Counted from the stretch's first letter, positions 4,190 to 50,409 are shown. The stretch: DNA of 54,194 bases from a virus (IMGVR_UViG_3300005470_000003:1-54194), one strand, 5' to 3'. Made by a program: numbers and translations. The notes: a model not told the origin generated them from the letters alone.

Positions 4190-4197
4190 CTTTAATA

Positions 4198-8413: not shown

Positions 8414-8785
8414 ATGATAGAGCTAAAATCATGCCCTTTTTGCGGCTTTTCAGCATTCATCGAAGAAACAGATCTAGAATGGAAAGACCAATTCCCATAT
8501 CGGATTCTGTGCGGTAACGAAGATTGTGCTGGCAGTCACTCATGGGCCAGCACTGAAGAAGAGGCCATCACTGCTTGGAACACCCGCGCCGACGGTTGGA
8601 TCAGCGTCGAGGATCGGTTGCCCAAATTGCCAACTCGTACTTATGATTGGTTTTTGGTAGTGGTATCAGATGGTTTAGAGTCAGATATTACAATCGCAAC
8701 TTATTCAACCGAAACATCATGGTCTAGAACCAACATCACCCACTGGAGGCCTCTACCAAAACCACCCGACACCGGAAAGGAGTAG
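8414..8785 (+). CDS. Lar-family zinc ribbon fused to DUF551-like domain
   Basis: LKSCPFCG...EEAITAWNTRA followed by WISVEDRLP...THWRPLPKPP. Confidence 0.8.
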   Translation: MIELKSCPFCGFSAFIEETDLEWKDQFPYRILCGNEDCAGSHSWASTEEEAITAWNTRADGWISVEDRLPKLPTRTYDWFLVVVSDGLESDITIATYSTETSWSRTNITHWRPLPKPPDTGKE

Positions 8786-9087: not shown

Positions 9088-9233
9088 TGTGGTAGATTAA
9101 CCACAATAATGTGTTTCCTACAATATAATCATTATATATATCTTATCAAAAAACCTTTTTCCAACGGTATCATCCAACTATATAATTATTTGGCACATAT
9201 TTTGCATAATTATTTTGTAAATGTAACCTAAAA
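9088..9233 (+). promoter_or_regulatory. Repeated sigma54-type promoter cassette, copy 3
   Basis: TGG-N10-ACA at 9090-9105 and TGT-N10-ATA at 9110-9125. TGGCAC-ATATT-TTGCA at 9191-9206. Confidence 0.75.
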
Positions 9234-9252
9234 ATGTGTTAAGGGAGAAATT

Positions 9253-18576: not shown

Positions 18577-18624
18577 ATTGAAGGTATTTTTTTCCTACAA
18601 TTTTTGCGGGCCGATTCCCTCCCT
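18577..18624 (+). repeat. Orphan copy of the sequence at the downstream end of IscB element 1
   Basis: 47/48 identical to 32595-32642. Confidence 0.8.
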
Positions 18625-26189: not shown

Positions 26190-26501
26190 ATGCCTGGTGA
26201 CTTAAAAACTATAACAGCTTTACTTACTAGAACAACAGAGAGATTACAGAGGGAGGAAGAAAGAGATAACCCTGATATGAGGAATGTTCTTTTTTCCATA
26301 TCTACTGTAACTACTGCTGCTATTGGTATGGCATCTTCAATAGAAGATTTATATAAAAAATTATTCGATTTAGAGAAATCCCATGATAAAAGACTCTTAG
26401 ATTTATCGAAAAAAATTATTTATTTATCTGCTGTTATATCTATCGGTGGTGGTTCCATAGTATTAATTGGAAAATATCTAATGGGTGTGGTGTTCAAATG
26501 A
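26190..26501 (+). CDS. Coiled-coil protein with C-terminal transmembrane helix
   Basis: IIYLSAVISIGGGSIVLIG. Overlaps the start of the PAS gene. Confidence 0.65.
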   Translation: MPGDLKTITALLTRTTERLQREEERDNPDMRNVLFSISTVTTAAIGMASSIEDLYKKLFDLEKSHDKRLLDLSKKIIYLSAVISIGGGSIVLIGKYLMGVVFK

Positions 26502-28582
26502 AATTCTTTGACAACATTATTCAAAAATTTTTAATAGACCCCCTTTTTACGGAAATAAGGGATGGAGTTGAGCTATCAGGCTATGATAGTAAGCAAAAAT
26601 ATTTACAAGATAAAATAGATATTTTAGAACACAATCGAGATCAATTAATCTCAATGGCTAAAAAGATCGAAATATTAACAGATAAATTAGCCCTTAATAA
26701 AAATGATCTGCATTTTAGTGAACAGAAATACAAGGATCTTGTTGAACATAGTAAAGATATTATATTTTTGTTAAATGAGGATTGTTCGTTTTCTTATGTT
26801 TCTCCTGCATTATTAGACATATGTGGGTATGATCCTGAAGATTTGATTGGTAAACATCTACCAAAAGATTGGATTTCCAAAAAAGATTACAAAAATCTAA
26901 CACATAAATTACAATTATTAAGTAGTCGGGAATTGGATTATATTGTATTTGAATCTGAATTTAAATGTAAAGATGAGAAGATAATCTATATAGAATTGAC
27001 TGCGTTTTCCATTATTTCTAATATATTAAAGGGAATACAGGGAATTGTTAGAGATACTACTGAACAGAAGAACTATGAAAGGAAAATCTTAGATAATGAA
27101 ATTTTTTTAAATTCAATCATTAATAACATTCCGATACCTGTTTTTTTTAAAGATAATAATGGATATTACAATCTTACAAATAAAGCATTTGAAGATTTTG
27201 TTGGAAAGTCTAAAGAAGAATTACTAAAATGTACTCCTTATGATATTACAGAAGAAAAATTCGCTCAAATATATCATAAAGTAGATATGGAATTACTACA
27301 AGGACTTAAATACAAGAAATTTACAACACAATTTCAACATATATATGGGCAGTTATCTGATATAATTGTACATAGAGCTTCCCTTTGTAATACAGAAGGA
27401 GATTTTATTGGAAGTATTGGTGCAATACAGGATATCACAGAGTTGAAACAGATTGAATTAGCCCTTAGAGAAAGTGAAGAGAAATATAGAACATTGGTTG
27501 AAAATCTTCCTATTCCTATTTACAGGGTTACTCCTGGTCCGATAGGTAAATTTATTCATGTTAACGAAGCTCTCTGTAAATTATTTAGTCTTTCTAAGGA
27601 AGAATTACTAGAAACAAAAATTTGTAATTTTTATAAAGATCCAGATAGAAGAAAGGATTTTTCAGATACTTTAATAGAAAAGGGATGTGTTACTAATTTT
27701 GAAGAAGAATTAGTTTTACCAAATGGGTCAATGGTTAATGTTGTCATAAGTGCCCGAGCTATACAGGACAATGATCAAGTATACTTTGATTGTAGTTTAT
27801 TAGATGTAACTAGGGAATGTAGAATAAGGCAAAGATATAAACATTTATTTGATAATATGCTAGATGCGGTAGCAATATACAAGGTTGAAAATGATCAGTT
27901 TATTTTTGTAGATATAAATCAGACTGGTGAGAATTGGGATAATATTAAAAAAGAAGATATTATAGGTAGGGAAGTATCTGAAGTTTTCCCCGGTGTAGAA
28001 CAATTTGGGTTATTACCAGTATTACAAAAAGTATGGGAAACTGGTATACCAGAAAAGTTGGAAACCTCTCTTTATGATGATGGTAAGTATTGTGGGTGGA
28101 GAGAAAATATAGTTTATAAACTTCCACACCAGGAAATAGTGGCTATCTATTCTGATGAAACAGAACGAATGACAGCTCTACTTAAATTACAAAAAAATAA
28201 TCAAATATTAGAGAGTATTTTGGAAAGTCAAACTGATTGTATTGCTAGGTGTGATCTAAATAGAAAAATATTATATGCTAATAAAGCTTATTTAAGATTT
28301 TTCTGTGGAACAGAAGAAATGTCAAATGACTGTAGATGTTTACAAGATTTTTTAAATAGTGTATATCCTGAAGATTTACAAAAAGTTGAAAAAACCATGG
28401 AACAGTTGTTAAGGATTATACCACATCATCAAACCCTAGATTGTAGAGCTTTAGATCATAAAGGAAACGTAAAGTTTTTTCATTGGGAAGCTTATGGTAT
28501 ATTGGATGACAAAGGTAATGTAATAGAGATACAAGGGATAGGTAGAGACATATTAGACCAAGTGAGGAAGAGAATAAAATGA
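26498..28582 (+). CDS. Multi-PAS/PAC sensor protein (five PAS domains) with no kinase or output domain
   Basis: Repeated SEE/QKY linkers and RDTTE, QDITE, LDVT, DETE, GRDI PAC ends. No H-box, HATPase or GGDEF visible. Confidence 0.9.
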   Translation: MKFFDNIIQKFLIDPLFTEIRDGVELSGYDSKQKYLQDKIDILEHNRDQLISMAKKIEILTDKLALNKNDLHFSEQKYKDLVEHSKDIIFLLNEDCSFSYVSPALLDICGYDPEDLIGKHLPKDWISKKDYKNLTHKLQLLSSRELDYIVFESEFKCKDEKIIYIELTAFSIISNILKGIQGIVRDTTEQKNYERKILDNEIFLNSIINNIPIPVFFKDNNGYYNLTNKAFEDFVGKSKEELLKCTPYDITEEKFAQIYHKVDMELLQGLKYKKFTTQFQHIYGQLSDIIVHRASLCNTEGDFIGSIGAIQDITELKQIELALRESEEKYRTLVENLPIPIYRVTPGPIGKFIHVNEALCKLFSLSKEELLETKICNFYKDPDRRKDFSDTLIEKGCVTNFEEELVLPNGSMVNVVISARAIQDNDQVYFDCSLLDVTRECRIRQRYKHLFDNMLDAVAIYKVENDQFIFVDINQTGENWDNIKKEDIIGREVSEVFPGVEQFGLLPVLQKVWETGIPEKLETSLYDDGKYCGWRENIVYKLPHQEIVAIYSDETERMTALLKLQKNNQILESILESQTDCIARCDLNRKILYANKAYLRFFCGTEEMSNDCRCLQDFLNSVYPEDLQKVEKTMEQLLRIIPHHQTLDCRALDHKGNVKFFHWEAYGILDDKGNVIEIQGIGRDILDQVRKRIK

Positions 28583-28968
28583 ATAAAGTTTTAGTGGTAG
28601 ACGATGAACAACAATTATTAGATATTATCAAACAAATGTTGGAAAAACTTGGATATAAGGTATATACTGCTTTAACAGCTACACAAGCTTTAAAATTATG
28701 GAAAGAACACAATATAGGGATAATTCTATCTGATTTACAATTAAATACCGATATGGATGGGTTAAGTCTCTGTTCAAGAATTAGATCAGAAGATTTAAAA
28801 ACCATCATGATTGCTATAACAGGACTTATTGAACATTATACTCTAGATTTATGTTTAACTGTAGGTTTTAGAGATGTATTACCAAAACCGATCAGATTTG
28901 AAGATTTACGATCTACAATGGAATGTGCTATGATTCAAAGAGAAAGATGGGAATTGTTAAATTATTAA
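28579..28968 (+). CDS. Stand-alone response regulator receiver domain (CheY-like)
   Basis: VLVVDDE, ILSD, MDG, AITG and PKP all intact. Overlaps the PAS stop (ATGA). Confidence 0.92.
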   Translation: MNKVLVVDDEQQLLDIIKQMLEKLGYKVYTALTATQALKLWKEHNIGIILSDLQLNTDMDGLSLCSRIRSEDLKTIMIAITGLIEHYTLDLCLTVGFRDVLPKPIRFEDLRSTMECAMIQRERWELLNY

Positions 28969-28987: not shown

Positions 28988-29275
28988 ATGAGAACAACAA
29001 ATTGGATGAACCGTTTGCAGGGTTTGAACGAATCTTATTATCGTCAGGATAGTGAAGTCGATGAAAAATCTATAAATATAATTGATGAATCAGTTAAATC
29101 AATTGATATAATTAAAGAATTGATAGATACTTCTTGGGGCGGGGATAATGAATCGCAAGGGAAAGCAGTTCAATTGTTAAAAGGCTTAGCCTTTTCTGAT
29201 GAGGAGTCATCAAATAAATTTATGTCAGCTCTTGATAAATTTACGTCTGAACTGAATGCCGACGATTTTGTTTAG
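28988..29275 (+). CDS. Hypothetical protein with leader-like N-terminus
   Basis: MRTTNWMNRLQGLNES, with GGAG RBS. Confidence 0.6.
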   Translation: MRTTNWMNRLQGLNESYYRQDSEVDEKSINIIDESVKSIDIIKELIDTSWGGDNESQGKAVQLLKGLAFSDEESSNKFMSALDKFTSELNADDFV

Positions 29276-29299
29276 TCGATAACCCCATACCTAAGGGTA
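29275..29299 (+). repeat. Orphan copy of the upstream end (omegaRNA scaffold start) of IscB element 1
   Basis: GTCGATAACCCCATACCTAAGGGTA, 24/25 identical to 31117-31141. Confidence 0.8.
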
Positions 29300-29305
29300 A
29301 TAATT

Positions 29306-29614
29306 ATGCAAGGAATTTATGATAGTTACATTGAATTTTGTCCTGAAGCCGGTGGAACGTGTTTGGGTCCTATATGTGCTGCTTTTAAATCAACAATTCA
29401 TTTGGGTTTAGATGGATCTATATTGATTAGACAGATGGGTTATGAATTACAAACACCAACACCAGTCATGTTGTCTATTGATATTGCTATATGTAATAAA
29501 TATAATAAATTGATAGGAGAGGATTCAGCTAATCTGTATTATAATTTCTTGCAGGATATGGGTATAATTAAAAACATAAGGTTTTTATCGATTGGAGAAG
29601 AAGAAGATGAGTAG
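29306..29614 (+). CDS. Hypothetical protein
   Basis: 102 aa with CPxxxxxCxxxxC motif. Confidence 0.55.
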   Translation: MQGIYDSYIEFCPEAGGTCLGPICAAFKSTIHLGLDGSILIRQMGYELQTPTPVMLSIDIAICNKYNKLIGEDSANLYYNFLQDMGIIKNIRFLSIGEEEDE

Positions 29615-31116: not shown

Positions 31117-31365
31117 GTCGATAACCCCATACCCAAGGGTAGGAATTTTTAATAATTCTAGTTATCGACCAGATTAAGAAAGTTATTTTTTTTTAACTTT
31201 CTACGTGTATTTAGTTATGATACCTACAAATGCGTGCCAGTTTGTAGCCCTATCGTTAAGCATCATGAAAACATGGTTGGGGACATGGTGAAGGTGTTTA
31301 GCATGACAAGCTTTATACACATTATCGAGGCAAACATTACAGCCGAAAGGCTAGAAGGAGTTTTA
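31117..31365 (+). ncRNA. omegaRNA scaffold of IscB element 1
   Basis: GTCGATAAC...GTTATCGAC stem, CAGATTAAG, CTACGT, CTACAAA-TGCGTGCCAG-TTTGTAG, CATTATCGAGG, GCCGAAAGGC hairpin directly upstream of iscB. Confidence 0.75.
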
Positions 31366-31445
31366 AAACCATGAACAATCATGTGTTTGTGTTGGATACA
31401 AATAAAAAGTCATAATATCCATTTACAATTATTTTAAAAATTGCT

Positions 31446-32588
31446 ATGCCAGAAGCTGTAGTAAAAGCATTAATTACTAAAATTGATCCAGGTAGTAAAT
31501 ATACCGGTATAGTACTTGTAGATAATAATGATCGTGTATTGTTTGCTGCTGAAATAGAGCATAGAGGATTATTCATTAAAAATAAATTGGATAGCCGTAG
31601 AGTTCTTAGAAGGGGTAGAAGAGGTAGAAATACCAGATATAGACAACCAAGGTTTTTAAATAGGACAAGACCTGATGGTTGGCTACCTCCAAGTTTACAA
31701 CATAGACTTCTAACAACTATGACATGGATAGATAAGTTTAGAAGGTATGCTGAAATCTCAAAGTTAGCTGTAGAACGTGTAAAATTTGATATGCAAAAAA
31801 TGCAAAATCCAGGAATTTCTGGTGTTGAATATCAACAAGGAACCTTAGCCGGTTATGAAATGCGTGAATATTTGCTTGAAAAATGGAATCGTACATGCGC
31901 ATATTGTGGTAAACAAGATATTCCATTAGAGATAGAACATATTCATCCAAAATCGAAAGGAGGTTCTAACAGAATTAGTAATTTGACATTGGCATGCCGT
32001 TCATGTAATGAGAAAAAAGGTAATATGTTAATTGAAGAATTCCTTAAAAATAAACCTGATGTTTTGAAGATAATTTTAGCACAAGCAAAGGCACCGTTGA
32101 AAGATGCCGCTGCTGTAAATGCTACTAGAAATATGTTATTTAAAAAATTATTGAATACTGGATTATTAGTGGAAACTGGTACAGGTGCACAGACAAAATT
32201 TAATCGCATTGGGTTAAAATTACCGAAAGAACATTGGATTGATGCAGCATGTGTTGGAGATTCTGGATGTAATGTTAAGGTTGATTCAAATTTAAAGCCA
32301 TTGAAGATTAAAGCAACTGGACACGGAAATAGAAGGATGTGTAGTACTAATAAATACGGATTTCCTATTCAACATAGGACAAATAAAAAGTTTCATTTCG
32401 GTTTTCAAACAGGAGATATAGTCAAAGCTGTAGTAACAAAAGGAAAAAATATAGGGATACATATTGGCAAGGTTATGTGTCGTGCCAAAGGTAATTTTGA
32501 TGTTCAAACATTAAAAGGTAAAATAGGTGCTTCTTATAAAAATTGTAGTATTTTGAGTAGAAAGGATGGGTATATCTATAACACCTAA
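31446..32588 (+). CDS. iscB: IscB RNA-guided endonuclease lacking the PLMP core
   Basis: RuvC-I IDPGS, Arg-rich bridge helix, WLPPSL, RuvC-II E, HNH CAYC..EHIHP..GG..N..C..CN, RuvC-III HWIDA. Original start at 31371 is followed by an in-frame TAA at 31413. Confidence 0.9.
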   Translation: MPEAVVKALITKIDPGSKYTGIVLVDNNDRVLFAAEIEHRGLFIKNKLDSRRVLRRGRRGRNTRYRQPRFLNRTRPDGWLPPSLQHRLLTTMTWIDKFRRYAEISKLAVERVKFDMQKMQNPGISGVEYQQGTLAGYEMREYLLEKWNRTCAYCGKQDIPLEIEHIHPKSKGGSNRISNLTLACRSCNEKKGNMLIEEFLKNKPDVLKIILAQAKAPLKDAAAVNATRNMLFKKLLNTGLLVETGTGAQTKFNRIGLKLPKEHWIDAACVGDSGCNVKVDSNLKPLKIKATGHGNRRMCSTNKYGFPIQHRTNKKFHFGFQTGDIVKAVVTKGKNIGIHIGKVMCRAKGNFDVQTLKGKIGASYKNCSILSRKDGYIYNT

Positions 32589-32665
32589 TTAGAGATTGAA
32601 GGTATTTTTTTCCTATAATTTTTGCGGGCCGATTCCCTCCCTGTCTAAAGCCTTGTGGAAAAGGT

Positions 32666-32902
32666 ATGGCTATTTTAACATCTGATAATCCTATGGGCAA
32701 AAAATCATCACCAGAAGAAAACAATAAAGATATAGCAGAAAGGATGGGCAGTAAGGATCATATCATATCCGCTGGATTTGTTAAATTTAATTCTATTGGA
32801 GATAAAGTAAAAGCAAGTTGTTATGGACAATCTACTTCTTTAGGTAAGTTCAGTCATCCTATGGATTCTGATTGGTTAACCATTTATATGGATAACTTTT
32901 AA
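32666..32902 (+). CDS. Hypothetical protein, paralog of the 33193-33474 remnant
   Basis: ISAGFVKF...CYGQSTSLG...DSDWL. Confidence 0.6.
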   Translation: MAILTSDNPMGKKSSPEENNKDIAERMGSKDHIISAGFVKFNSIGDKVKASCYGQSTSLGKFSHPMDSDWLTIYMDNF

Positions 32903-33200: not shown

Positions 33201-33474
33201 GAGAATCTTAATTAATGGTGAGTTTAAGTACATCATGATAGATAACACAGGACCAATGGGTAGTACAGAAGGAATTATAATTTTTCCAGTATGAGAAAAT
33301 CATAAGGATGTTGTTAAGAAGTTAGGCAGTAAGGAACATGTAGTATCAGTTGGATTTGTAAAATTCAGTTCTGTTGATGGAGAGATAAAACCAAGATGTT
33401 ATGGGCAATTCACTTCTTTAGGAATAGCTAGTCAGCCCAAAGATTCTGATTGGTTAATTAATTACATCAAATAA
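33193..33474 (+). pseudogene. Paralog of 32666 with an in-frame TGA
   Basis: FKYIMI...IIFPV*ENHKD...VSVGFVKF...CYGQFTSLG...DSDWL. TGA at 33292. Confidence 0.7.
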
Positions 33475-38781: not shown

Positions 38782-39372
38782 ATGACTAGAGCTAGACAAA
38801 TTTTAAAGGAATTAAATGAGTCCAGTCTTTCAAGAGTTTGGAATCATGTAACTAAACATGATTCAGGTACTATCTCTGCTTTTCGATATGCTAAAGATTG
38901 TGGTGATGGTGAAGTATTTTCTAAGAAAGAAAATAAAGATCGTAATGCTGTCTTAAAAGCAAAGTTATTAAATGTTGGATATGGGGTAACTCCAGTAAAA
39001 GGTATTTATATTGAAAATTACAAATCTAATAATGAAATTGAGGTTTCCGAAAATAGTTTTATTGTAGTAGATTTAAAAGATACAGGAAATCTTAAAGAAG
39101 CTCTTATTAAATTCGGAAATGAATTTGAACAGGATAGTATTACTTATTCAAAAGCTAATGGGGATTATTTCCTAATAGGGACTAATGATTGTCCTAAGTC
39201 TTATCCGGGATTTAAAAAGGAAGTGAAGTTGGGAGGTCCCATGTTTGGAAAGAAGGGGATTTTTTATTCTAAAGTTAATGGGAGACCTTTTGTTTTTGAA
39301 AGTATTAATTCTAATGTAATATCATTAGTTGATTTATCTATTTCTGAGATTAGATCAATTAAGCAGTTATAG
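38782..39372 (+). CDS. Leader-bearing conserved phage protein
   Basis: MTRARQILKELNE then SSLSR...ISAFR...G.YIE...E.SF...FEQDSI. Confidence 0.75.
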   Translation: MTRARQILKELNESSLSRVWNHVTKHDSGTISAFRYAKDCGDGEVFSKKENKDRNAVLKAKLLNVGYGVTPVKGIYIENYKSNNEIEVSENSFIVVDLKDTGNLKEALIKFGNEFEQDSITYSKANGDYFLIGTNDCPKSYPGFKKEVKLGGPMFGKKGIFYSKVNGRPFVFESINSNVISLVDLSISEIRSIKQL

Positions 39373-39465: not shown

Positions 39466-39801
39466 GTGTACGAATATAAGGCAAGAGTGGTTAGAATTGT
39501 TGATGCTGACACATTTGATGTTTTAGTTGATCTTGGATTTGATTTAAGTTTTAAGATTAGAATTAGAATAAATGATTATGATGCTCCCGAAATTTGGCGT
39601 CCAAGAAATCAATCTGAAGCAGAGCATGGAGATAAAGCTACAGCACAGGCAAATAAACTTGTTTGGCAAAAAGATATAACTATTAGGACTTATAAATTAG
39701 GGATTTATGGTAGATACACTGCCGATGTGATACTACCAGATGGAAGAAGTTATTCTACTTTAATGAAGGAGCTTGGATTTGAAAAATCTGAGAATTATTA
39801 A
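39466..39801 (+). CDS. Thermonuclease (staphylococcal nuclease-like)
   Basis: VRIVDADT..V.VDLGF, RIR...DAPE, YGRY. Confidence 0.88.
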   Translation: MYEYKARVVRIVDADTFDVLVDLGFDLSFKIRIRINDYDAPEIWRPRNQSEAEHGDKATAQANKLVWQKDITIRTYKLGIYGRYTADVILPDGRSYSTLMKELGFEKSENY

Positions 39802-40067
39802 TGAAAGCTATTGATATATTACAGATGTTCGAAAAGAAATTTGAAATTGGTGAAGGAACTGTTGTAATTATTAATCCAAAAATTTCTGGATCTGATGGTG
39901 GTGTTGGTATAGTTAAAGATCCTAGAGATGGGAAATTTATGATTGTGAAAAATTTTAAAACTATGAAAACTCATTCTTTTGCTGGTTCTGATATTAGGCA
40001 TTTAGATGATCCAAGGGCAGATGAGTGGATCACACCGGAAATAGAGAAGATTTTGAACAAGATGTAA
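39801..40067 (+). CDS. Small leader-bearing beta-rich protein
   Basis: MKAIDILQMFEK. Confidence 0.65.
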   Translation: MKAIDILQMFEKKFEIGEGTVVIINPKISGSDGGVGIVKDPRDGKFMIVKNFKTMKTHSFAGSDIRHLDDPRADEWITPEIEKILNKM

Positions 40068-40093
40068 ATTATTTACTTTCCCAATTTTTATGA

Positions 40094-40178
40094 TGGCAGT
40101 CATGAAACCCTGTCCATGGTCAATGGTTGAATTGACTCACACACTACTTATGTGCATGGGTGATGTATCCATTTTTTT
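40094..40178 (+). ncRNA. Candidate structured RNA, partial copy 1
   Basis: GTCAAT-GGTTGA-ATTGAC hairpin and ACACTACT. The 3' half is missing. Confidence 0.45.
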
Positions 40179-40241
40179 GATTATTCAAAGGCCGGTGAGC
40201 AAATCACACCCGATGTAGAGAATATTCTATAGGGCAATGTA

Positions 40242-40670
40242 ATGGAAATTAAACAAAAATTAATTCATGAAAAATCATTGAGTTCGAAAAATTCTAGTGA
40301 ATCCAGAGTTCTTAAAATGTTAGCTATGCAATCACTTAAGATACCATCCAACATCAATGATAAAATTATAAAATGGACTGGTGAACGTAATAAGAATTGT
40401 TATATGTTATCAGGACGTTTTGGACTCGATAATGATGATTGGGAAGTTTGTCACGGAATTATAAATCCACCGATAGGACCATATAGTAATACTGATTATG
40501 ATCATGCTTGGTGTGAAAAAAGTAATGTGGTGTATGAATCTGTTTTTAATAAATTTTTTGAAAAGAAAGATTATTATGATGTATACATTCCAATGGATGT
40601 TAAACGTTACAAAGGTAATTCGTTAAGACGTATAATTTTAAAGAATGAAACATGGGGTCCATGGAAATGA
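40242..40670 (+). CDS. Hypothetical protein, possible Cys-His hydrolase or transglutaminase-like fold
   Basis: NCY...VCHG...HAWCE. Confidence 0.6.
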   Translation: MEIKQKLIHEKSLSSKNSSESRVLKMLAMQSLKIPSNINDKIIKWTGERNKNCYMLSGRFGLDNDDWEVCHGIINPPIGPYSNTDYDHAWCEKSNVVYESVFNKFFEKKDYYDVYIPMDVKRYKGNSLRRIILKNETWGPWK

Positions 40671-40858
40671 AGGATAGATTTAAGGAAAAATCAAAGAAGC
40701 ATATTAAGGTTGATTCTGGTACATTGAATAGTATTATGGAAAGTACAAAAAGTAAAGCTAGTAAATTAATTACAATTCTAGAGTCTGTTGTTAAGAAAAC
40801 AAATTAAATAATATCATCTTTGGTGGGTTCTGTATTTAGGGCTGATCTCCACCATGGG

Positions 40859-41008
40859 CGCTGCTGCGTTTTTCGGTTTTTGTGGCAGCAAATCATGAAA
40901 TCCTGTCCATGACTCAATGTTTGAATTGGGCCACACACTACTTATGCGCAGGATAGTATACCTCCTTTCTTTGACTGCAAAATAGAGTTGGGTAGTGTCT
41001 CTTTTTTT
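40859..41008 (+). ncRNA. Candidate structured RNA, copy 2
   Basis: Four stems shared with copy 3, ACCTCCTTT motif, terminal hairpin plus T tract. Confidence 0.6.
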
Positions 41009-41033
41009 ATTATCAAATAATGGTGAATATAAT

Positions 41034-41627
41034 ATGACTAAGGCTACTGATATTATTGATTTATATGTGGGGCTTGAATTAGATGAAGCCTTTTATCGAG
41101 GTTTACAAATACTTGAATCTTATGATTTAACAGATCAATGTGAGACTGCAAATCAAGAGAAGACAGATGAAGCGTTTGGGGTGGTAGCAATACTCGGGCT
41201 AGTTATGGCTATGCCTAGTTTTGTTAAGTTGGTTGCCAAGGCGTTTGGTTGGATTTATAAAAAGATTGTTAAGTTATTTACGAAAAAAGATATAGATTCA
41301 CCTGAATTCATAGATAAGATTATTATTTTTGCAGAAAAATGGCATGATAAATACATTATTGTCCTTGAAAAGATTTTGAAAATAGCTGGTGTGTTTAAGG
41401 CAGCTAAATTAGAAGATCATGAGAAACAAAAGATGGCTGCTGAGGTCTTATTTTATATAATTGTGTTCGGTATGGCTGTCTATAGTGGTGTTGGAGCCAC
41501 TAAAGCAATAATTACTGCCATTCAGAATAGTAGTGCAGCACACAGTAAGATCGCGGTCATAGAAAGTGTATTAACTGGATTGAAATCCAAGGAGGTAAAG
41601 ACATTTATACAAAACATAAGTGCTTAA
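41034..41627 (+). CDS. Leader-bearing protein with two hydrophobic segments
   Basis: MTKATDIIDL; FGVVAILGLVMAMP and VLFYIIVFGMAV. Confidence 0.7.
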   Translation: MTKATDIIDLYVGLELDEAFYRGLQILESYDLTDQCETANQEKTDEAFGVVAILGLVMAMPSFVKLVAKAFGWIYKKIVKLFTKKDIDSPEFIDKIIIFAEKWHDKYIIVLEKILKIAGVFKAAKLEDHEKQKMAAEVLFYIIVFGMAVYSGVGATKAIITAIQNSSAAHSKIAVIESVLTGLKSKEVKTFIQNISA

Positions 41628-41815
41628 GTTGTAACTGTTAATATCTATAATTATTATTTTGTTTTTATAAACTATATTAATCGTTTAAATAATATGAATT
41701 ATGTCTTTAATACCTTTTATGTAAAAAGTAATTTTATTATCAGCTACTGTAGGAACTATATTAGTTCATTGTAAGGGTAGATAATTCTAGACGATAAATA
41801 TTCATTGGATTGATC

Positions 41816-42703
41816 ATGTTGATAAAAGCAAATGACATAATTTCACTATTCGAATCAAAAGAATTGATGTATCACGGAACATCATCCAAGTTTTTAGATA
41901 GTATCATAAAGAACGGTCTTTTATTTAAAGAGGATGGAAGGGTTTGGGGTACTAAACAGGTTTCAACTCATTTGAATGATCTTGAATCTTATCATGGAAC
42001 TTATTTTACACTGAATTTTATGACTGCATATAGTGCATCTGGTCAAGCACATCGTAAATTTGGTGGAAATCGTTTAATTATAATTGCCAATATTGAGACC
42101 AGGACCCCGCAAGTAGTTGCAGATGAAGATGATGTCAAGAATAAAATTACCATTTTTTCAAAAGATTATAAAATTTACCCTGAAAGCGATACACTTAAAG
42201 TTGACATATTGAAATATGATAGTCTTGATTATGAAAGAAGTTGGGAAGAATTTAAATCAAGTGTAACTTATGGTAGATTGGGTTTTCCAAAGAAGTTGGA
42301 TTTATTATTTCCATTATATAAAGACTTATTGCTTGCTAAATTGTTATGGGAATTGTCATTTCATGATGTTGAAAAAGTTACTGGAATAAGTTACGATTTA
42401 AAACAGCTGCATAAAAAATATGATTTTAAAAATGCAAGGAGTAACTTTAGGAGTTTGTTTGATAAATTTTTGAAAAAGTTAAATTTTTTAGCAAGCCCGC
42501 CTCCTACTGGTCGTTTCATGCATTCAGTGAGGATGACAGATCCTGTTGGTTTCAAAGGGAAAAACAGAATTGTATATATTGTTGAAAATACTGACGATAA
42601 AAAATACATATGGACTGAAAGATATAATAAAAGTGGTGTTGCAAAGGAAATGTTTTTGAAAAATATAAAAACAAGTTTGTCTAAAAACGCTACAATTATC
42701 TAA
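41816..42703 (+). CDS. Leader-bearing ADP-ribosyltransferase-fold protein
   Basis: KANDIISLFES; MYHGTS..L.SI.KNGL; GTYFT; ADED. Confidence 0.72.
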   Translation: MLIKANDIISLFESKELMYHGTSSKFLDSIIKNGLLFKEDGRVWGTKQVSTHLNDLESYHGTYFTLNFMTAYSASGQAHRKFGGNRLIIIANIETRTPQVVADEDDVKNKITIFSKDYKIYPESDTLKVDILKYDSLDYERSWEEFKSSVTYGRLGFPKKLDLLFPLYKDLLLAKLLWELSFHDVEKVTGISYDLKQLHKKYDFKNARSNFRSLFDKFLKKLNFLASPPPTGRFMHSVRMTDPVGFKGKNRIVYIVENTDDKKYIWTERYNKSGVAKEMFLKNIKTSLSKNATII

Positions 42704-42727
42704 TTTTGTTTATTTTTTTGGTGTAAT

Positions 42728-43405
42728 ATGACTATTGCAAGAGATATTTTAAGAATCATAGAAGATAGATGGGGTACCAATTTTTCAGGTGACGACACTG
42801 GAAATTGGGAATCAAAATTAATATTATCAAACGATTGGACAATGACTTGTGGACTTTCATTAAAAAATGATAGGAAAAATTATTCAGTTGAAGGTGCAAC
42901 AGAGGATCATCCTGGTTTTAGAAAAGCTCTTGATGAAATTGTTAAAAAATATCCATATATAAAAGATTATCTTATATCTTTTGATGGGCCATATATTAAA
43001 ATATCTGATGTATTAAAGCGTAAGAAATTTTCTTGGAAAGATATTACACTGTATCATGGAACGGCCTCAGCCTTTTTGGATTCTATAAAAAAGAATGGGT
43101 TGAGTCCAAGGTCTGTTACTAATCAAAATGCCGGGTATGGTTCATTTGTTGGGGCTAAAAGTGGTAATAAAGATGCCATATATCTCACAACACAAATTGG
43201 AATGGCTAAATTTGCTGGTTTAGAAGTTTCAAGTAAAACAAATTCAGATAGGATAATATTATCGGTAAATGGAAAAGATCTCAATCCAAAGCTTTTGATT
43301 CCAGATGAAGATAGTAGAAAACAAACACCAGAAGATAGTTTATTTAAAATTGGATCGGTTGGGTATCTAGGGATTATTCCGTTTAGTCAGTTGTCAAGGT
43401 CTTAA
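42728..43405 (+). CDS. Leader-bearing ADP-ribosyltransferase-fold (KptA/Tpt1-like) protein
   Basis: MTIARDILRIIED; LYHGT..L.SI.KNGL.P; IYLT; PDED; YLGIIP. The last codons come from IscB element 2. Confidence 0.75.
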   Translation: MTIARDILRIIEDRWGTNFSGDDTGNWESKLILSNDWTMTCGLSLKNDRKNYSVEGATEDHPGFRKALDEIVKKYPYIKDYLISFDGPYIKISDVLKRKKFSWKDITLYHGTASAFLDSIKKNGLSPRSVTNQNAGYGSFVGAKSGNKDAIYLTTQIGMAKFAGLEVSSKTNSDRIILSVNGKDLNPKLLIPDEDSRKQTPEDSLFKIGSVGYLGIIPFSQLSRS

Positions 43406-43620
43406 TACCTTGGTTTGTTAGGTGACTAACAACGATTAAAAGAGCTGATTAGTCTAAGTCTTAATTGACTACGTTATCTTAGAATATATAGGTACTTCAG
43501 AATGCCTCCCAAGTTCTGAACACTACGGATGATAGTTAAACAGAGTTCAAAGACTCGGTGCTATTATTAAAAACCTAAGAATAACATTGACGATGGGAAT
43601 CAACTCCGAAAGGAGATTTA
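43386..43620 (+). ncRNA. omegaRNA scaffold of IscB element 2
   Basis: GTCAGTT...AGCTGATTAGTCTAAG, CTACGTT, TTCAGAA-TGCCTCCCAAG-TTCTGAA, AACATTGACGATGGG, CTCCGAAAGGAG hairpin. Confidence 0.75.
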
Positions 43621-43622
43621 TA

Positions 43623-44813
43623 ATGAATCCAAAAGTATTTGTTTTGGCAGAAGATGGGACACCATTGATGCCTACAACTGCATCAAGGGCTAGACGAAAA
43701 TTGAGGGATGGTCAAGCTAAAGTTGTGAAAAGAGAACCTTTCACAATTCAATTGCTTTACAAATCAGGAATGGAGATTCAACCAATTAAGTTGGGGATTG
43801 ATTCGGGCTATCAAAATATAGGTTTTTCCGCAACAACAGAAAAAGATGAATTAATATCCGGTGAAGTTAAGTTGGATAATGGAATGTCAAAGAGAATCCA
43901 AGACAAAGCCATATATCGTAGGAATCGCAGGAATAGACTTAGATACAGACAATCAAGATTTGATAATAGAACACAAAAAGAAAATTGGTTGCCACCATCA
44001 ATTCAAAGAAGATTTGATACTAATATTAGTCTTATTAACAAATTGAGATCAATACTTCCTATTTCTGAGATTATTGTTGAGGCAGGTAGTTTTGATATTC
44101 AAAAGTTACAAAATCCTGAAATTGAAAGTAAACAATATCAACAAGGTGAAATGTATGGTTATGCAAATCTAAAATCTTATCTTTTGACAAGAGAAAAAAG
44201 TTTATGTCAATTGTGTGGTAAAGTTCACAAAAAGTGGCAGATGCATCATATTATTCCAAGGTCTAAAGGTGGAACAAATAGACCAAAGAATTTTGCATTG
44301 TTGGGCGATAAATGTCATGATAAATTGCATAAACAAAATTTATATCACAAATTAAAAAAGAATAGACAATTTAAAGGATCTACTTTCATGTCTATCATTA
44401 GAAAGAGATTCTATGATTTCGGATATAACGTAGTTTATGGTTATCAGACCTTTGTGGATCGCAATAAATTGAGTTTATCTAAGAGTCATGCAAATGATGC
44501 CTTTGTAATATCAGGTGGTATAAATCAAAATAGAGTAAATATGTTCATAGTAACTCAAAAAAGAAAAAATAATAGATGTCTGCAAATTAATAGAAAGTCG
44601 GGAATTTTGATTCGTAGAAAGAGATATAGTATTCGACCAAAAGATTTAGTTAAATATTCAGGTAAGATGTTTGAAGTGATAGGGATTATTAGTAGGGGAT
44701 TAAGTGTTGGTCTGACGGATGGAATTAAAAAGATTTATAAATCACCATCAAAATTGGATGATTGGATCTTTCATAGAAAGACATTGATTTGGAGAAACTG
44801 TATAGGTCAATAA
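43623..44813 (+). CDS. iscB: IscB RNA-guided endonuclease with intact PLMP domain
   Basis: VFVL...PLMPT..RAR, RuvC-I GIDSG, bridge helix, WLPPS, HNH HHIIP..GG, RuvC-III SHANDA. Confidence 0.92.
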   Translation: MNPKVFVLAEDGTPLMPTTASRARRKLRDGQAKVVKREPFTIQLLYKSGMEIQPIKLGIDSGYQNIGFSATTEKDELISGEVKLDNGMSKRIQDKAIYRRNRRNRLRYRQSRFDNRTQKENWLPPSIQRRFDTNISLINKLRSILPISEIIVEAGSFDIQKLQNPEIESKQYQQGEMYGYANLKSYLLTREKSLCQLCGKVHKKWQMHHIIPRSKGGTNRPKNFALLGDKCHDKLHKQNLYHKLKKNRQFKGSTFMSIIRKRFYDFGYNVVYGYQTFVDRNKLSLSKSHANDAFVISGGINQNRVNMFIVTQKRKNNRCLQINRKSGILIRRKRYSIRPKDLVKYSGKMFEVIGIISRGLSVGLTDGIKKIYKSPSKLDDWIFHRKTLIWRNCIGQ

Positions 44814-45052
44814 TAATGATAGGTGAGAAGGCAACTATTTGTTTATGTCCAAAATGTAATTGTAAACACAAATATAAGATTTATTGGGTTGGCAACGGCA
44901 TTCCTCGTGTCTATTGTAAAATTTGTAGGGCAATAATTTCAAGAAGAATATTTATGGAATCATATAAAGTCAGCAACGGTTCAAATTCATCACAACGTTT
45001 AGTCGATACCTAATGGTATGAATTTTTAATAATTTAGAATTGGTGCCATAAT

Positions 45053-45198
45053 ATGACTATTGCAAGAGACATTTTTAAAAATTATAGAAGATGGAGGTAA
45101 TTATTATGAGTAAGGCTAGTATGATATTGGAAATTCTTGAACCAAAAGATCCTAGTAAAATTTCTTATTCTCTAATCTTGATGAAAAGTCAGAATTGA
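45053..45198 (+). pseudogene. Two orphan leader stubs
   Basis: 45053 is a frameshifted near-copy of the 42728 start (MTIARDIF). 45106 reads MSKASMILEILEP... and stops at 45198. Confidence 0.6.
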
Positions 45199-46028
45199 TT
45201 TTGAAGACTTTTTATCATAAAAATCCTGAAAAATATAAGTTTAATCTTTTTCATATATATGATCTCGATTTAAGAGAATCTTTAGCAAAAATTGTTGGAT
45301 TGGATATTGACTGGGATTATGATCAACATGAAGTTAATAAATCTCTTACTTTTTTTGCTAATAAATTTTATGAATTTTCAGAATCTAATGAATATTTAAT
45401 CAGCAGGGGGGTTACTGAAGATCAAATTAATAGATTTAAGTTAGGCAATGTTTCGGGATTTTTCAATCATTTGGAAAAAAATGTTGATCTTTATGATTTT
45501 AATGAAGTCTCAAAAAGTTTAATGAGATTTTATATATGTTCCATGCAAGAAGTATCCAGCCTCTATGGTCCTACTGAAATGGTTACTATTCCAAATTTTA
45601 ATGTTGATTGTTTAGGAATAGTAGGTAGAGTTGTTGGTTATACTGATAAATATAAGATAGATAGGAACATTCATAAATTTTCGAATACCAATCAACTGAC
45701 TTATCTTTTAGGGGAAGATGTTCTTGATGATTATGATTGGGTTTATCTTGTAGAAGGGGTATTTGATCTTCTTGCTATGGATAGAATTGGAATAAAGAAT
45801 GTAGTTACAGCTTCTGCAACATCACTTTCTAATATGCATGTGAAAAAATTAATGGGAAAAGGGGTAATTGCTATATTTGATAATGATTTAGGCGGATACC
45901 ATGGAATTGAAAGATTAAAAAATCAGGATATTGATTTAATTGATGGTGTTCAAATTGATTTTGCTAAAGATATAGACGAGGCTGATCCAAATCAATTATA
46001 TAATTGGGTTACAAGCATGTTTCTTTAA
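45195..46028 (+). CDS. DnaG-type primase / TOPRIM-domain protein
   Basis: YL.SRG....I..F.LG, VGR, LVEGVFD, IFDND..G, KDIDE. Confidence 0.8.
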   Translation: MILKTFYHKNPEKYKFNLFHIYDLDLRESLAKIVGLDIDWDYDQHEVNKSLTFFANKFYEFSESNEYLISRGVTEDQINRFKLGNVSGFFNHLEKNVDLYDFNEVSKSLMRFYICSMQEVSSLYGPTEMVTIPNFNVDCLGIVGRVVGYTDKYKIDRNIHKFSNTNQLTYLLGEDVLDDYDWVYLVEGVFDLLAMDRIGIKNVVTASATSLSNMHVKKLMGKGVIAIFDNDLGGYHGIERLKNQDIDLIDGVQIDFAKDIDEADPNQLYNWVTSMFL

Positions 46029-46160
46029 GGCACTATAATAATTAGTAAATAATGTTAATTGTTTGTGTGTTCTAGTGTGTAGTTTCGAAAGCAAAATAGC
46101 ACCAGGTTCAAATTTATTTCAACGTTTAGATAATAATTGATATTTTTTAAGTTTATCTCA

Positions 46161-46301
46161 TCATTGCCTTTTTCGCATTTTAGGCAATGAGTAATTATGT
46201 CTATCCAAGTCTGATGTTTGAATCAGAACAAACACTACTATTGCATAGAGTACTACCTCCTTTGTTGGGATTATTGAGGGTTGGGTAGTGTCCCTCTTTT
46301 T
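46161..46301 (+). ncRNA. Candidate structured RNA, copy 3
   Basis: TCATTGCCT/AGGCAATGA, TCTAT/ATAGA, TCTGAT-GTTTGA-ATCAGA, ACCTCCTTT, GAGGG-TTGGGTAGTGT-CCCTC-TTTTT. Confidence 0.6.
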
Positions 46302-46522
46302 ATATGTTGTAATTTTTACTAAAATTTATTAATGGTGATCATAATTATGAATGTATTGATATGGCTTCTTGATTTTTTTGGTATTTTTAAAACTGTAAAT
46401 GTAAAGAACGATATAGATAAATATGCTGCTGCCTATGTTATATTTTTAGTCTCAGTCATATTTCTCGGGTCTCTGATTGTTTTATCATTTGTTAAACACT
46501 TTTTTAATTAGTAGGGGTCACA

Positions 46523-47086
46523 ATGCCAACACCAACAATAGAAAAAGTCGCTGATGTGTGCGATATAGATAAAGAAGAAGTTGAAAACTTATGGTCTAAA
46601 GCTAAAATCATTGCTAAGAATAATGGAGTTGAAAAATATTCATATGTTATGGGCGTTTTTAAGAAACTGATTGGTGATGATTGTATAAAAAAATTAGATT
46701 GGGAGAAAAGTGAAAGCAAAGCTGAAGAAATCTTGGAATTGCTTGAAAGAACAGTTAATTCAGAATTGTTGCTAGAACGGTTTGATTCTGATCTAGGTAA
46801 TTTTTATGCATCAGATGTTGGTACTATAAATTTCCAGATACATCCACGAGAATCGTCTGCTGAGGTCGATGTTTTTTCATTTGTTTATAAGGCTAATAAT
46901 AAAGATACTTATAGATTATTTTATGATGATTTTAAAGACATATATGCTGTTGCTAAGGGTAGATGGGAAAAGGAAGCAGAAGAATTAGCAAAGGCTGTTA
47001 AAATAGCTCAAGACGCTTTGGTATTGAAATTTCAAGGTGAGTTGCAAGCAGAAGTAGATAAATTAGATAAGAAGTATAATGGATAA
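46523..47086 (+). CDS. Two-domain hypothetical protein with internal leader
   Basis: N-terminal VE.LW.KAK domain followed by SKAEEILELLE. Confidence 0.7.
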   Translation: MPTPTIEKVADVCDIDKEEVENLWSKAKIIAKNNGVEKYSYVMGVFKKLIGDDCIKKLDWEKSESKAEEILELLERTVNSELLLERFDSDLGNFYASDVGTINFQIHPRESSAEVDVFSFVYKANNKDTYRLFYDDFKDIYAVAKGRWEKEAEELAKAVKIAQDALVLKFQGELQAEVDKLDKKYNG

Positions 47087-49974: not shown

Positions 49975-50409
49975 ATGGTAATTTGGATAACTGGTAAAGC
50001 CGGTGCTGGAAAAACCTTTTTAGCTAAAAATTTAAAAAGTCAATTAAATAATATAAATTATCCGTGTTTAATAATTGATGGTGATGAATTACGTAAAATT
50101 GTTGATTATGGATATTCACACGAAGGTCGTTATAAAAATGTAATGTTTGCCTCAAAACTAGCAGGTATGTCTGAAGAACAGGGAATTATTGCTATAATTT
50201 CAATGGTTTCACCTATAAAAGAACATAGATTTGAGGCAAGACAATTATTTAAGAATTCTGAATTGATACATGTTTTGGGTGGAAAATTGTGGGAAGGGTC
50301 TGTTTATGATGAACCCGATGAAGATGAGGCAAGTTTTATCTATGATTGGAGAAACAAAACTGTCGTCAGGAATTCTTTCTCATGGGTTGGAAATTTTCTA
50401 AAATTCTAG
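49975..50409 (+). CDS. cysC: Adenylyl-sulfate (APS) kinase-like protein
   Basis: VIWITG..GAGKT, IDGDELR, GYS.EGR..N, SP....R, YDEP. Shorter than typical CysC. Confidence 0.8.
   Translation: MVIWITGKAGAGKTFLAKNLKSQLNNINYPCLIIDGDELRKIVDYGYSHEGRYKNVMFASKLAGMSEEQGIIAIISMVSPIKEHRFEARQLFKNSELIHVLGGKLWEGSVYDEPDEDEASFIYDWRNKTVVRNSFSWVGNFLKF

What the first reader, a model, noticed from the sequence alone, without database searches (positions are those of the whole stretch)
40094..46301. Three-copy structured RNA candidate with compensatory base changes
Seen: intergenic copies at 40094-40178 (partial), 40859-41008 and 46161-46301 keep their loops while changing their stems. The central hairpin is GTCAAT/ATTGAC, CTCAAT/ATTGGG or TCTGAT/ATCAGA around G(G/T)TTGA. 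The enclosing stem is ACCCTG/CATGGGT, ATCCTG/CAGGAT or TCTAT/ATAGA. The 5' hairpin is GCTGCTGCG/TGTGGCAGC or TCATTGCCT/AGGCAATGA around a TTTTCG..TTTT loop. The 3' hairpin is AGAG/CTCT or GAGGG/CCCTC around an invariant TTGGGTAGTGT, followed by a T tract. G-U pairs favour the + strand. I do not recognise it as a known family. Inference: a phage ncRNA or cis-regulatory RNA family.
Basis: partly seen in the sequence, partly recalled or inferred. Interest (0 to 1): 0.8.

Follow-up and report, generated by a model that had tools for sequence, protein, structure and literature searches.

The report
Orphan structured RNA repeated in phage
A roughly 150-base RNA-like element occurs two and a half times between genes of an uncharacterised phage, keeping its loops while its stems change in matching pairs; it looks like a real, undescribed RNA structure, but nothing like it was found elsewhere and its job is still a guess.

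Summary
There are exactly three + strand copies: B 40858-41010 and C 46158-46303 are complete, and A 40079-40173 is a decayed remnant. Four helices are kept by compensatory changes: 98.7% of 78 cells pair, and 14 of 31 pairs change on both sides, which 0 of 500 shuffles reached. Unpaired columns are better conserved than paired ones, 67/87 against 25/57. Nine G-U cells favour the + strand.

No Rfam family matches. No homologue turned up in the phage, plasmid, viral, metagenome or genome collections, so covariation cannot be tested beyond this one contig. No sequencing run was listed either.

New here: the 11-nt internal loop pairs with the 3' hairpin loop over 7-10 bp (ACACUAC with GUAGUGU). 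That gives a pseudoknot that would stack on the weak 3' hairpin just before the U tract, 25-45 nt upstream of the next gene's ribosome-binding site.

My best reading, at 0.4, is a cis-acting leader that works as a pseudoknot-gated attenuator in polycistronic + strand transcripts. The rivals are a processing site or ribozyme, a small RNA with an anti-Shine-Dalgarno-like segment, a put-like antiterminator, and a DNA-level cassette. Interest is moderate.

The parts
40858..41010 (+). Copy B, complete element: P1, linker, P2-P2b-P3, CU-rich linker, P4, U tract
   Evidence: Reference for model R1; 203 bits
40860..40889 (+). B P1: 9-bp hairpin, arms 40860-40868 and 40881-40889, with the 12-nt U-rich loop UUUUUCGGUUUU; three G-U pairs
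40900..40954 (+). B extended hairpin: P2 (40900-40906 with 40948-40954), P2b (40908-40912 with 40942-40946), P3 (40913-40918 with 40925-40930), hexaloop GUUUGA (40919-40924), 11-nt 3'-side internal loop (40931-40941)
   Evidence: In the MFE fold; RNAalifold; pair counts
40935..40941 (+). B internal-loop segment ACACUAC, complementary to the P4 loop (pseudoknot strand)
   Evidence: Duplex of -12.0 kcal/mol, 10 bp including G-U pairs; unpaired probability 0.93 in the nested ensemble
40960..40968 (+). B CU-rich block ACCUCCUUU, which I recall as matching the 16S rRNA anti-Shine-Dalgarno tail
   Evidence: Exact in B and C only; mean unpaired probability 0.40
40984..41008 (+). B P4: AGAG and CUCU around the 11-nt loop UUGGGUAGUGU (40988-40998), then a U tract to 41008
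   Evidence: the hairpin alone is -1.6 kcal/mol
41022..41036 (+). GGTGA ribosome-binding site and ATG of the 197-codon gene downstream of B
   Evidence: weak similarity to the region downstream of C, score 44 against shuffles 25 +/- 4.2, maximum 40
46158..46303 (+). Copy C, complete element
   Evidence: 77.5 bits, E 6e-15 with the B-only model
46161..46190 (+). C P1: UCAUUGCCU and AGGCAAUGA around the loop UUUUCGCAUUUU
46200..46249 (+). C extended hairpin: P2 (46200-46204 with 46245-46249), P2b (46206-46208 with 46241-46243), P3 (46210-46215 with 46222-46227), loop GUUUGA, internal loop carrying ACACUAC (46232-46238)
   Evidence: The MFE of C keeps P3 but replaces P2 with another pairing
46255..46263 (+). 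C CU-rich block ACCUCCUUU
   Evidence: Almost fully paired in the nested ensemble, unpaired probability 0.04
46276..46301 (+). C P4: GAGGG and CCCUC around UUGGGUAGUGU (46281-46291), then UUUUU
   Evidence: Hairpin -7.3 kcal/mol; pseudoknot duplex -10.9 kcal/mol
46334..46349 (+). GGTGA ribosome-binding site and the likely ATG (46347) of a small hydrophobic protein downstream of C
40079..40173 (+). Copy A, decayed: keeps P2 (40107-40113 with 40154-40161), P2b, P3 (40119-40124 with 40131-40136) and ACACUAC (40141-40147); lacks the 5' arm of P1, the CU-rich block and P4
   Evidence: 48.5 bits, E 1e-8; alignment
40174..40233 (+). Relic of the 3' end of a paralogue of ORF 39801-40067, which marks a deletion that truncated copy A
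   Evidence: Local alignment score 59 against shuffles 23 +/- 4, maximum 40; FDYSKAGEQITPDVENIL* against LDDPRADEWITPEIEKIL

Best explanation
This is a genuine RNA structure read from the + strand, about 150 nt long, carried inside the phage's long co-directional transcripts just upstream of the next gene's ribosome-binding site.

Architecture:
- P1, a hairpin with a conserved U-rich 12-nt loop.
- A long hairpin P2-P2b-P3 with a conserved hexaloop and an 11-nt one-sided internal loop.
- A CU-rich linker, ACCUCCUUU.
- A short hairpin P4 with an invariant 11-nt loop, followed by a U tract.

Proposed mechanism (inferred, not shown). The element is a cis-acting leader that gates read-through. When the internal-loop segment ACACUAC pairs with GUAGUGU in the P4 loop, the 7-bp pseudoknot helix stacks on the 4-5-bp P4 stem. 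The result is an 11-12-bp composite helix abutting the U tract, which would terminate or pause transcription. When the CU-rich linker instead pairs with the 5' arm and loop of P4, that helix cannot form and transcription runs into the downstream gene. The strongly conserved unpaired segments would be where an unknown factor (protein, small molecule or RNA polymerase) binds and chooses between the states.

Shown: the helices, their compensatory changes, the strand, both complementarities and the position.
Inferred: transcription of the element, termination, switching, and the existence of a factor.
For: - Compensatory changes in P1, P2, P2b, P3 and one pair of P4.
- Loops are more conserved than stems, 67/87 against 25/57 columns. 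This pattern is the reverse of what a protein-bound DNA palindrome would show.
- Nine G-U cells and one non-pair on the + strand.
- All neighbouring genes are on the + strand.
- The internal loop and the P4 loop are complementary in both full copies: -12.0 and -10.9 kcal/mol, against -1.6 and -7.3 for P4 alone.
- A competing CU-rich:P4 helix exists in both full copies, at -7.9 and -14.5 kcal/mol.
- Similarity between B and C starts at P1, with none upstream: score 34 against shuffles 29.6 +/- 5.
- The U tracts end 25-45 nt before a GGTGA ribosome-binding site and ATG. That leaves no room for a separate promoter, so a constitutive terminator here would silence the downstream gene.
Against: - There are only two complete copies and one remnant, all in one genome, so the pseudoknot and the switch have no covariation support. 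Both pseudoknot strands are invariant.
- The competing helix uses different registers in B and C.
- P4 is not a canonical terminator: a 4-5 bp stem with an 11-nt loop. The consensus scan does not call it.
- Fold energies are unremarkable: z -1.0, -2.05 and -0.06.
- No promoter stands out upstream. Promoter-like sites number 43, against 42.5 expected.
- There is no transcript evidence.
- No RNA-binding regulator was recognised among 60 ORFs scanned against Pfam.
- The genes downstream of A, B and C have no recognised family or shared function, so there is no obvious signal to sense.
Confidence: 0.4

Rival explanations
1. An RNA processing or stabilising site, or a self-cleaving ribozyme. The element would be cut by a host or phage RNase, or by itself, to split polycistronic transcripts and leave protective hairpins. 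The comparison is with the RNase III sites between early genes of phages T7 and SP82.
For: The element is repeated and intergenic inside co-directional gene arrays. P2-P2b-P3 gives about 18 bp of near-continuous helix with an asymmetric internal loop. Highly conserved unpaired nucleotides plus a pseudoknot fit a compact catalytic or recognition fold. Phage SP82 RNase III targets are mentioned in a passage of PMC4838370. What I know of those sites' structure is recalled.
Against: No known ribozyme family matches, even at E <= 10 on about 220-nt inputs. A plain RNase III site would not need conserved loops. No cleavage data exist.
Confidence: 0.17
2. A free-standing or attenuation-derived small RNA of about 150-190 nt. 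Its CU-rich segment ACCUCCUUU would pair with Shine-Dalgarno regions of host or phage mRNAs, like the C-rich seeds of Gram-positive sRNAs (recalled).
For: The block is a perfect complement of AAAGGAGGU and is present only in the two full copies. A hairpin plus U tract sits at the 3' end. Weak promoter-like hexamers lie 20-35 nt upstream of P1 in both copies: TTGTTA-18-TATCAT at 40788-40817 and TTCAAA-16-GATAAT at 46107-46134.
Against: The CU-rich block is mostly paired in the predicted ensembles, with unpaired probability 0.40 in B and 0.04 in C. There is no conserved promoter. Promoter-like hits are at the chance level. No phage site has extended complementarity: apart from the two exact matches that are the motif copies themselves, the 6 matches elsewhere in the window each have one mismatch, and 8 matches in all against 5.0 expected is not an excess. 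An efficient terminator would cut off the downstream gene.
Confidence: 0.15
3. A processive antitermination RNA of the HK022 put, Bacillus EAR or Tn916 canT type. The nascent folded RNA would bind the transcribing polymerase and make it ignore downstream terminators.
For: The element is a multi-hairpin cis RNA present in more than one copy per phage, with compensatory stem changes between copies. That such RNAs act in cis and are structurally complex is described in PMC11658703 (abstract and sections 16 and 21). The abstract of PMC9378689 describes HK022 putRNA (search listing).
Against: I made no sequence or structure comparison with put, EAR or canT. I did not check whether Rfam holds models for them, and no Rfam family matched. 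The element itself ends in a terminator-like feature. My crude scan did not single out strong terminators downstream of it that would need overriding; most of its hits lie inside ORFs.
Confidence: 0.1
4. A DNA-level element, or no present function. This would be a repeated intergenic cassette that serves as a recombination point between gene modules (as T4 PeSLs do), or single-stranded DNA hairpins acting in replication near the primase gene.
For: Copy A is truncated and abuts a relic of a paralogue's 3' end, so rearrangement has happened at the element. The region is full of paralogous genes and repeats. Copy C lies just after the primase gene. PeSLs are repeated composite intergenic motifs tied to indels (PMC4122927, abstract and passages).
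Against: PeSLs are defined by a conserved sigma-70 promoter after one stem-loop, and I found no conserved -35/-10 pair reading the element by eye. Stems that vary while loops stay fixed, and nine G-U pairs, three of them in one 9-bp stem, fit RNA better than duplex or single-stranded DNA.
Confidence: 0.1

Closest known systems
Riboswitch-type and protein-dependent transcription attenuators in 5' leaders (terminator or antiterminator switches)
   Same: A structured domain with conserved unpaired nucleotides, followed by a hairpin plus U tract a few tens of nt before the ribosome-binding site. Mutually exclusive pairings involve the terminator arm.
   Different: No known aptamer or leader family matches. 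The terminator stem is only 4-5 bp and would need a pseudoknot to be effective. The downstream genes are of unknown function. No ligand or regulator is identified.
HK022 put RNA, Bacillus EAR, Tn916 canT (RNA-mediated processive antitermination)
   Same: Cis-acting folded RNAs of mobile elements. I recall that HK022 has two related copies whose stems differ by compensatory changes. They are described as complex and tertiary-structure dependent (PMC11658703, sections 16 and 21).
   Different: I showed no sequence or structure similarity. This element is larger than put (about 70 nt, recalled) and ends in a U tract. Its function is untested.
PeSL promoter-terminator cassettes of T4-like phages
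   Same: Repeated composite intergenic motifs in plastic, gene-dense regions that extend to the ribosome-binding site and start codon of the next gene. Degraded half-copies sit next to indels (PMC4122927 passages). Here, copy A plays that part.
   Different: PeSLs consist of one stem-loop plus a conserved sigma-70 promoter. This element has four helices, conserved loops, a pseudoknot and no recognisable conserved promoter.
RNase III processing sites between early genes of phages T7 and SP82
   Same: Several related intergenic hairpins with an internal loop, inside polycistronic phage transcripts. The structural details are recalled; the existence of the SP82 targets is cited in a passage of PMC4838370.
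   Different: Those are single hairpins. Here there are extra domains (P1, P4, the pseudoknot) and strongly conserved loops. Cleavage is untested.
HEARO / IscB omega RNA (RF02033), present twice in the same window
   Same: A structured, pseudoknotted phage-borne RNA of comparable size on the same strand.
   Different: The three copies do not match the HEARO model, are not next to an IscB gene, and lie 2.3 kb upstream and 1.1 kb downstream of the nearest IscB unit.

Membership tests
Any Rfam 15 family (4227 models) | Score at or above the family's gathering threshold | tested here: not met
   The whole window at gathering thresholds gives only HEARO twice and one tRNA. At E <= 5 over 39800-46600, and at E <= 10 on B and C alone, there are only sub-threshold chance hits of 9-25 bits.
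Intrinsic terminator / attenuator leader | A G+C-rich hairpin directly followed by a U tract | tested here: inconclusive
   A U tract of 5-7 is present. The stems are only 4 bp (B, -1.6 kcal/mol) and 5 bp (C, -7.3) with an 11-nt loop, and the consensus scan does not call them. A stacked 7-bp pseudoknot would lengthen the helix, but that is inference.
Intrinsic terminator / attenuator leader | A conserved alternative pairing that excludes the terminator | tested here: inconclusive
   A CU-rich:P4 helix is predicted in both copies (-7.9 and -14.5 kcal/mol), but in different registers and with no covariation.
Intrinsic terminator / attenuator leader | Condition-dependent 3' ends or read-through | not testable with these tools
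   No sequencing run was listed.
Trans-acting small RNA | Its own promoter and a discrete transcript | tested here: inconclusive
   There are only 9-of-12 hexamer matches upstream, at the chance rate, and no conserved upstream sequence. No expression data exist.
Trans-acting small RNA | An accessible seed region | tested here: not met
   Mean unpaired probability of ACCUCCUUU is 0.40 in B and 0.04 in C in nested ensembles. Pseudoknot states were not modelled.
PeSL cassette | A conserved sigma-70 -35/-10 pair after a stem-loop, then the Shine-Dalgarno sequence and start codon | tested here: not met
   I found no conserved -35/-10 pair inside or upstream of the element by eye or by scan. Only the ribosome-binding-site region shows weak similarity.
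HEARO / omega RNA of IscB | A match to RF02033 and adjacency to an iscB ORF | tested here: not met
   RF02033 hits only 31117-31340 and 43386-43604. The ORFs flanking the motif carry no RRXRR or HNH domain.
put / EAR / canT antiterminator RNAs | Confers terminator read-through in cis | not testable with these tools
   This is a functional definition, and I made no sequence comparison.

The most novel reading that the evidence does not exclude
The element may be a phage-made mimic of the 3' tail of 16S rRNA. It has a long hairpin followed, 5-6 nt later, by ACCUCCUUU(C/G)U, the anti-Shine-Dalgarno sequence (recalled). It would be released from the transcript at the U tract and used in trans to soak up Shine-Dalgarno sites or factors that bind or cut the 16S tail. 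The pseudoknot would control whether the tail is exposed. That would be a new way for a phage to reprogramme or protect translation.
Probability: 0.06. Interest if true: 0.85.

Novelty: new variant of a known kind. Interest (0 to 1): 0.45.

Why it matters
If it is real and functional, this would be a new structured RNA class from a phage lineage with almost no sequenced relatives. The neighbouring primase has only two relatives at E <= 1e-5 in the word-indexed search of 5.8 billion clustered proteins. The element sits in a region packed with anti-restriction-type genes and genes that share an N-terminal signature. A terminator that depends on a pseudoknot, rather than on a long hairpin, would be an unusual expression platform. 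The strongly conserved loops imply an unidentified binding partner. On present evidence it remains a single-genome candidate. Its value is as a well-defined target for RNA-seq, structure probing and reporter assays once the phage or a relative is in hand.

Tried and rejected
Homologue searches, all negative:
- blastn of B against phages gave no match. C against phages gave one 21-nt chance hit at E 0.6. B against plasmids gave no match.
- Exact-pattern scans of viral contigs returned 7, 0, 62 and 15 stretches. The metagenome-contig scan returned 24 and the genome-contig scan 109.
- The 7 stretches were read by eye and are unrelated coding sequence.
- The rest were searched with model R2. It found 0 matches at E <= 1 in the 62 and in the 124. 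It found 2 of 24 at E 0.039 and 0.28, both mostly mismatched in the helices.
- All hit counts fit chance expectation.
- These patterns need 15-19 exact bases, so diverged relatives would be missed.

Relatives through neighbouring proteins:
- The primase and the 197-aa protein as single queries in viral contigs found none.
- A primase alignment matched 275 pattern stretches, and none was confirmed.
- The two primase relatives (55% and 47% identity) sit on contigs I could not fetch.
- R2 over the whole records of two Clostridium/Clostridioides phages that share the IscB gene gave 0 of 2.

Other checks that led nowhere:
- No sequencing run was listed and no RNA holder was listed.
- A full-text search for four motif strings returned 52 papers; the 10 listed were unrelated.

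Ideas rejected:
- A - strand gene or mini-ORF after the AAAGGAGGT on the - strand. No conserved frame exists (by eye).
- Five-codon frames starting at the linker AUG in B and C. Their peptides and stop positions differ, and there is no ribosome-binding site.
- Ends of the IscB element. The distances are 1.1-2.3 kb.
- An internal sigma-70 or sigma-54 promoter.
- ANTAR-type hexaloops. The loop GUUUGA does not fit the recalled consensus.
- My crude terminator scan of the window was uninformative; most of its hits lie inside ORFs.

Full report
**What the window is.** The window is an entire IMG/VR virus record of 54,194 bases, which CheckV estimates to be 37% complete. All sizeable ORFs lie on the + strand. 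Of 20 ORFs scanned against PHROGs, 13 match no family at the thresholds used. Recognisable functions include:
- two IscB genes, each preceded by a HEARO omega RNA
- a Toprim primase
- Lar, SAM lyase, a PurB-like lyase, sulfotransferase and APS kinase, a multi-PAS protein followed by a receiver-domain protein, and a small serine recombinase

The phage has no close relative in the collections available. The primase has only two relatives at E <= 1e-5 among the 380 word-sharing candidates scored from the 5.8 billion clustered proteins.

It recovers C (46158-46303, 77.5 bits, E 6e-15) and A (40079-40230, 48.5 bits, E 1e-8). The other 11 of 14 listed matches have E >= 0.39.
- *Pairing.* On the model-derived alignment of the three copies, 98.7% of 78 cells pair, against a shuffled mean of 85.1%. 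Fourteen of 31 pairs change on both sides, which 0 of 500 shuffles reached. Sliding the 3' partners by one to three columns drops pairing to 26-46%. RNAalifold independently returns P1, P2, a middle helix I call P2b, and P3, with 12 of 26 pairs showing double changes. It does not return P4, because copy A is gapped there.
- *Loops versus stems.* Between the two full copies, unpaired columns are more conserved than paired ones: 67/87 against 25/57, Fisher p 8e-5.
- *Strand.* Nine cells are G-U or U-G and one is non-standard. On the - strand those nine would be A-C mismatches, so the + strand is the structured one.
- *Limits.* The alignment was fitted to the structure. There are three related rows from one genome. 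Fold energies are ordinary: z -1.0, -2.05 and -0.06 on the + strand.

**Copy A is a remnant.** It keeps P2, P2b, P3 and the internal loop, with compensatory differences from B. It has lost the 5' arm of P1, the CU-rich block and P4. Immediately after it, 40174-40233 is a relic of the last 18 or so codons of a paralogue of the upstream ORF 39801-40067. The alignment score is 59 against shuffles 23 +/- 4, maximum 40. The simplest history is a deletion between tandem paralogues that removed the 3' third of the element and most of the next gene.

**New structural points.**
- *A pseudoknot.* The 11-nt one-sided internal loop between P3 and P2b contains ACACUAC, and the invariant P4 loop contains GUAGUGU. 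The duplex is 10 bp in B (-12.0 kcal/mol) and 8 bp in C (-10.9), compared with -1.6 and -7.3 for the P4 hairpin alone. By my own geometric reasoning, a 7-bp version is sterically possible as an H-type pseudoknot. The four loop bases UUGG would cross the deep groove, and GUAGUGU would continue directly into the 3' arm of P4. That gives an 11-12-bp composite helix abutting the U tract.
- *A competing helix.* The conserved block ACCUCCUUU, with flanking bases, can instead pair with the 5' arm and loop of P4 (-7.9 and -14.5 kcal/mol). This is what nested folding prefers, so the block is mostly paired: unpaired probability 0.40 in B and 0.04 in C. The registers differ between B and C, and neither this helix nor the pseudoknot has covariation, because the strands are invariant.

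**Position.** Similarity between B and C begins at P1, and nothing upstream aligns better than shuffles: 34 against 29.6 +/- 5. Downstream, the U tracts are followed within 25-45 nt by a GGTGA ribosome-binding site and ATG. The weak similarity there, 44 against 25 +/- 4.2, reflects the ribosome-binding context that many genes of this phage share. Promoter-like hexamers are at the chance level, 43 against 42.5, and the best ones upstream of P1 match 9 of 12.

**What it is not.**
- *Rfam.* No family matches at gathering thresholds or at E <= 10 on the isolated copies.
- *Collections.* blastn finds nothing meaningful in the phage and plasmid collections. Six exact-pattern scans built from the conserved blocks returned only chance-level hits: viral 7, 0, 62 and 15; metagenome 24; genomes 109. 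None is a convincing match to the three-copy model R2.
- *Relatives.* Phage relatives could not be reached through the primase or the 197-aa neighbour. Two phage records that share the IscB gene have no copy.
- *Expression.* No sequencing run was listed.

**Mechanism.** I favour a cis-acting leader, at 0.4. An efficient terminator this close to the next ribosome-binding site, with no room for a promoter, would silence the downstream gene. So the 3' hairpin must be weak or conditional, and both properties are visible: P4 alone is feeble, and two alternative partners compete for its loop. The pseudoknot would complete a terminator-like helix, and the CU-rich pairing would dissolve it. The conserved loops (U-rich L1, GUUUGA, the internal loop) would be contact points for whatever selects the state. 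All of the functional part is inference.

**Rivals:**
- a processing site or ribozyme (0.17)
- a small RNA using the anti-Shine-Dalgarno-like block as a seed (0.15), weakened by the block's predicted pairing and the lack of a promoter
- a put/EAR/canT-like antiterminator (0.10), with the class as described in PMC11658703 (abstract and sections 16 and 21)
- a DNA-level cassette of the PeSL kind (0.10). PMC4122927 (abstract and passages) defines PeSLs by a conserved sigma-70 promoter, which is absent here.

**Verdict.** The interpretation as an undescribed structured RNA is reasonable and is sharpened towards a cis-regulatory role. However, the family is an orphan, with no outside homologues and no expression evidence. 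Interest is moderate at 0.45. The supplementary files of the cited papers were not consulted.

Noticed in passing
window 31117-32588 and 43386-44813; fragments at 29267-29315 and 44986-45034: There are two HEARO (IscB omega RNA) matches, at 110.9 and 109.9 bits, each directly followed by an RRXRR+HNH IscB ORF of 380 and 408 aa. Two further stretches resemble the first 49 nt of HEARO at 67% and 78% identity, one of them just after the second IscB gene (family D5). So this phage fragment carries two IscB units plus remnants.
   Followed up: partly
window 601-747, 4196-4342, 9088-9234: Three copies, 84-90% identical, of a 147-nt intergenic cassette. Each contains an exact sigma-54-type -24/-12 element, TGGCAC-N5-TTGCA, on the + strand. 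The pattern gives 5 matches at up to 1 mismatch against 0.82 expected, and 0 of 100 shuffles reach 5. Upstream in the cassette lies a conserved near-palindrome that could be an enhancer-binding site. A multi-PAS protein (26498-28582) and a receiver-domain protein (28579-28968) are encoded in the same window.
   Followed up: partly
window 18769-48700, e.g. ORF starts 18769, 21910, 22317, 23796, 29607, 34163, 36738, 38782, 39801, 41034, 41816, 42728, 47090, 48628: Nineteen of 104 non-overlapping + strand ORFs begin with a shared N-terminal signature, roughly M-x(1-3)-[AK]-x-x-[ILFE]-[ILV]-x-x-[LIFMY], often followed by E (for example MTNANEIIDIFE and MRTAQEIINLFE). The same post hoc pattern's internal rate predicts 1.6. 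It resembles, from memory and untested, the T4 capsid-targeting sequence with an L/I-x-E prohead-protease site. That would make this an array of packaged or injected proteins. One carrier (41816-42703) has a sub-threshold PARP/ADP-ribosyltransferase hit at E 0.0054. The genes flanking motif copies A and B belong to this set.
   Followed up: partly
window 18577-18624 and 32595-32642: A 48-nt repeat, 98% identical, lies just after ORF 17700-18545 and just after the first IscB ORF. It may be a transposon end or a shared terminator region.
   Followed up: no
window 5853-5910 and 6939-6996: A perfect 58-nt direct repeat spans a gene end and the next start codon (family D9). Several other repeat families join paralogous gene starts (D6, D7, D11). 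The region shows heavy recent duplication or recombination.
   Followed up: no
window 1954-3188: A nucleotidyltransferase (phrog_388, E 9e-49) sits immediately upstream of a tRNA-Leu(UAA) with a long variable arm at 3102-3188.
   Followed up: no
window 8414-8785, 12563-13873, 19525-20520, 38782-39372, 39466-39801, 49975-50409: The window encodes several anti-restriction and nucleotide or sulfur-metabolism genes: Lar+DUF551, a PurB-like adenylosuccinate lyase (33-37% identical to phage purB annotations), a sulfotransferase, SAM lyase, an SNase-like nuclease and an APS kinase.
   Followed up: no
window 32716-32889 and 33294-33467: A 174-nt direct repeat, 72% identical and 578 nt apart, was not examined further (family D2).
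   Followed up: no
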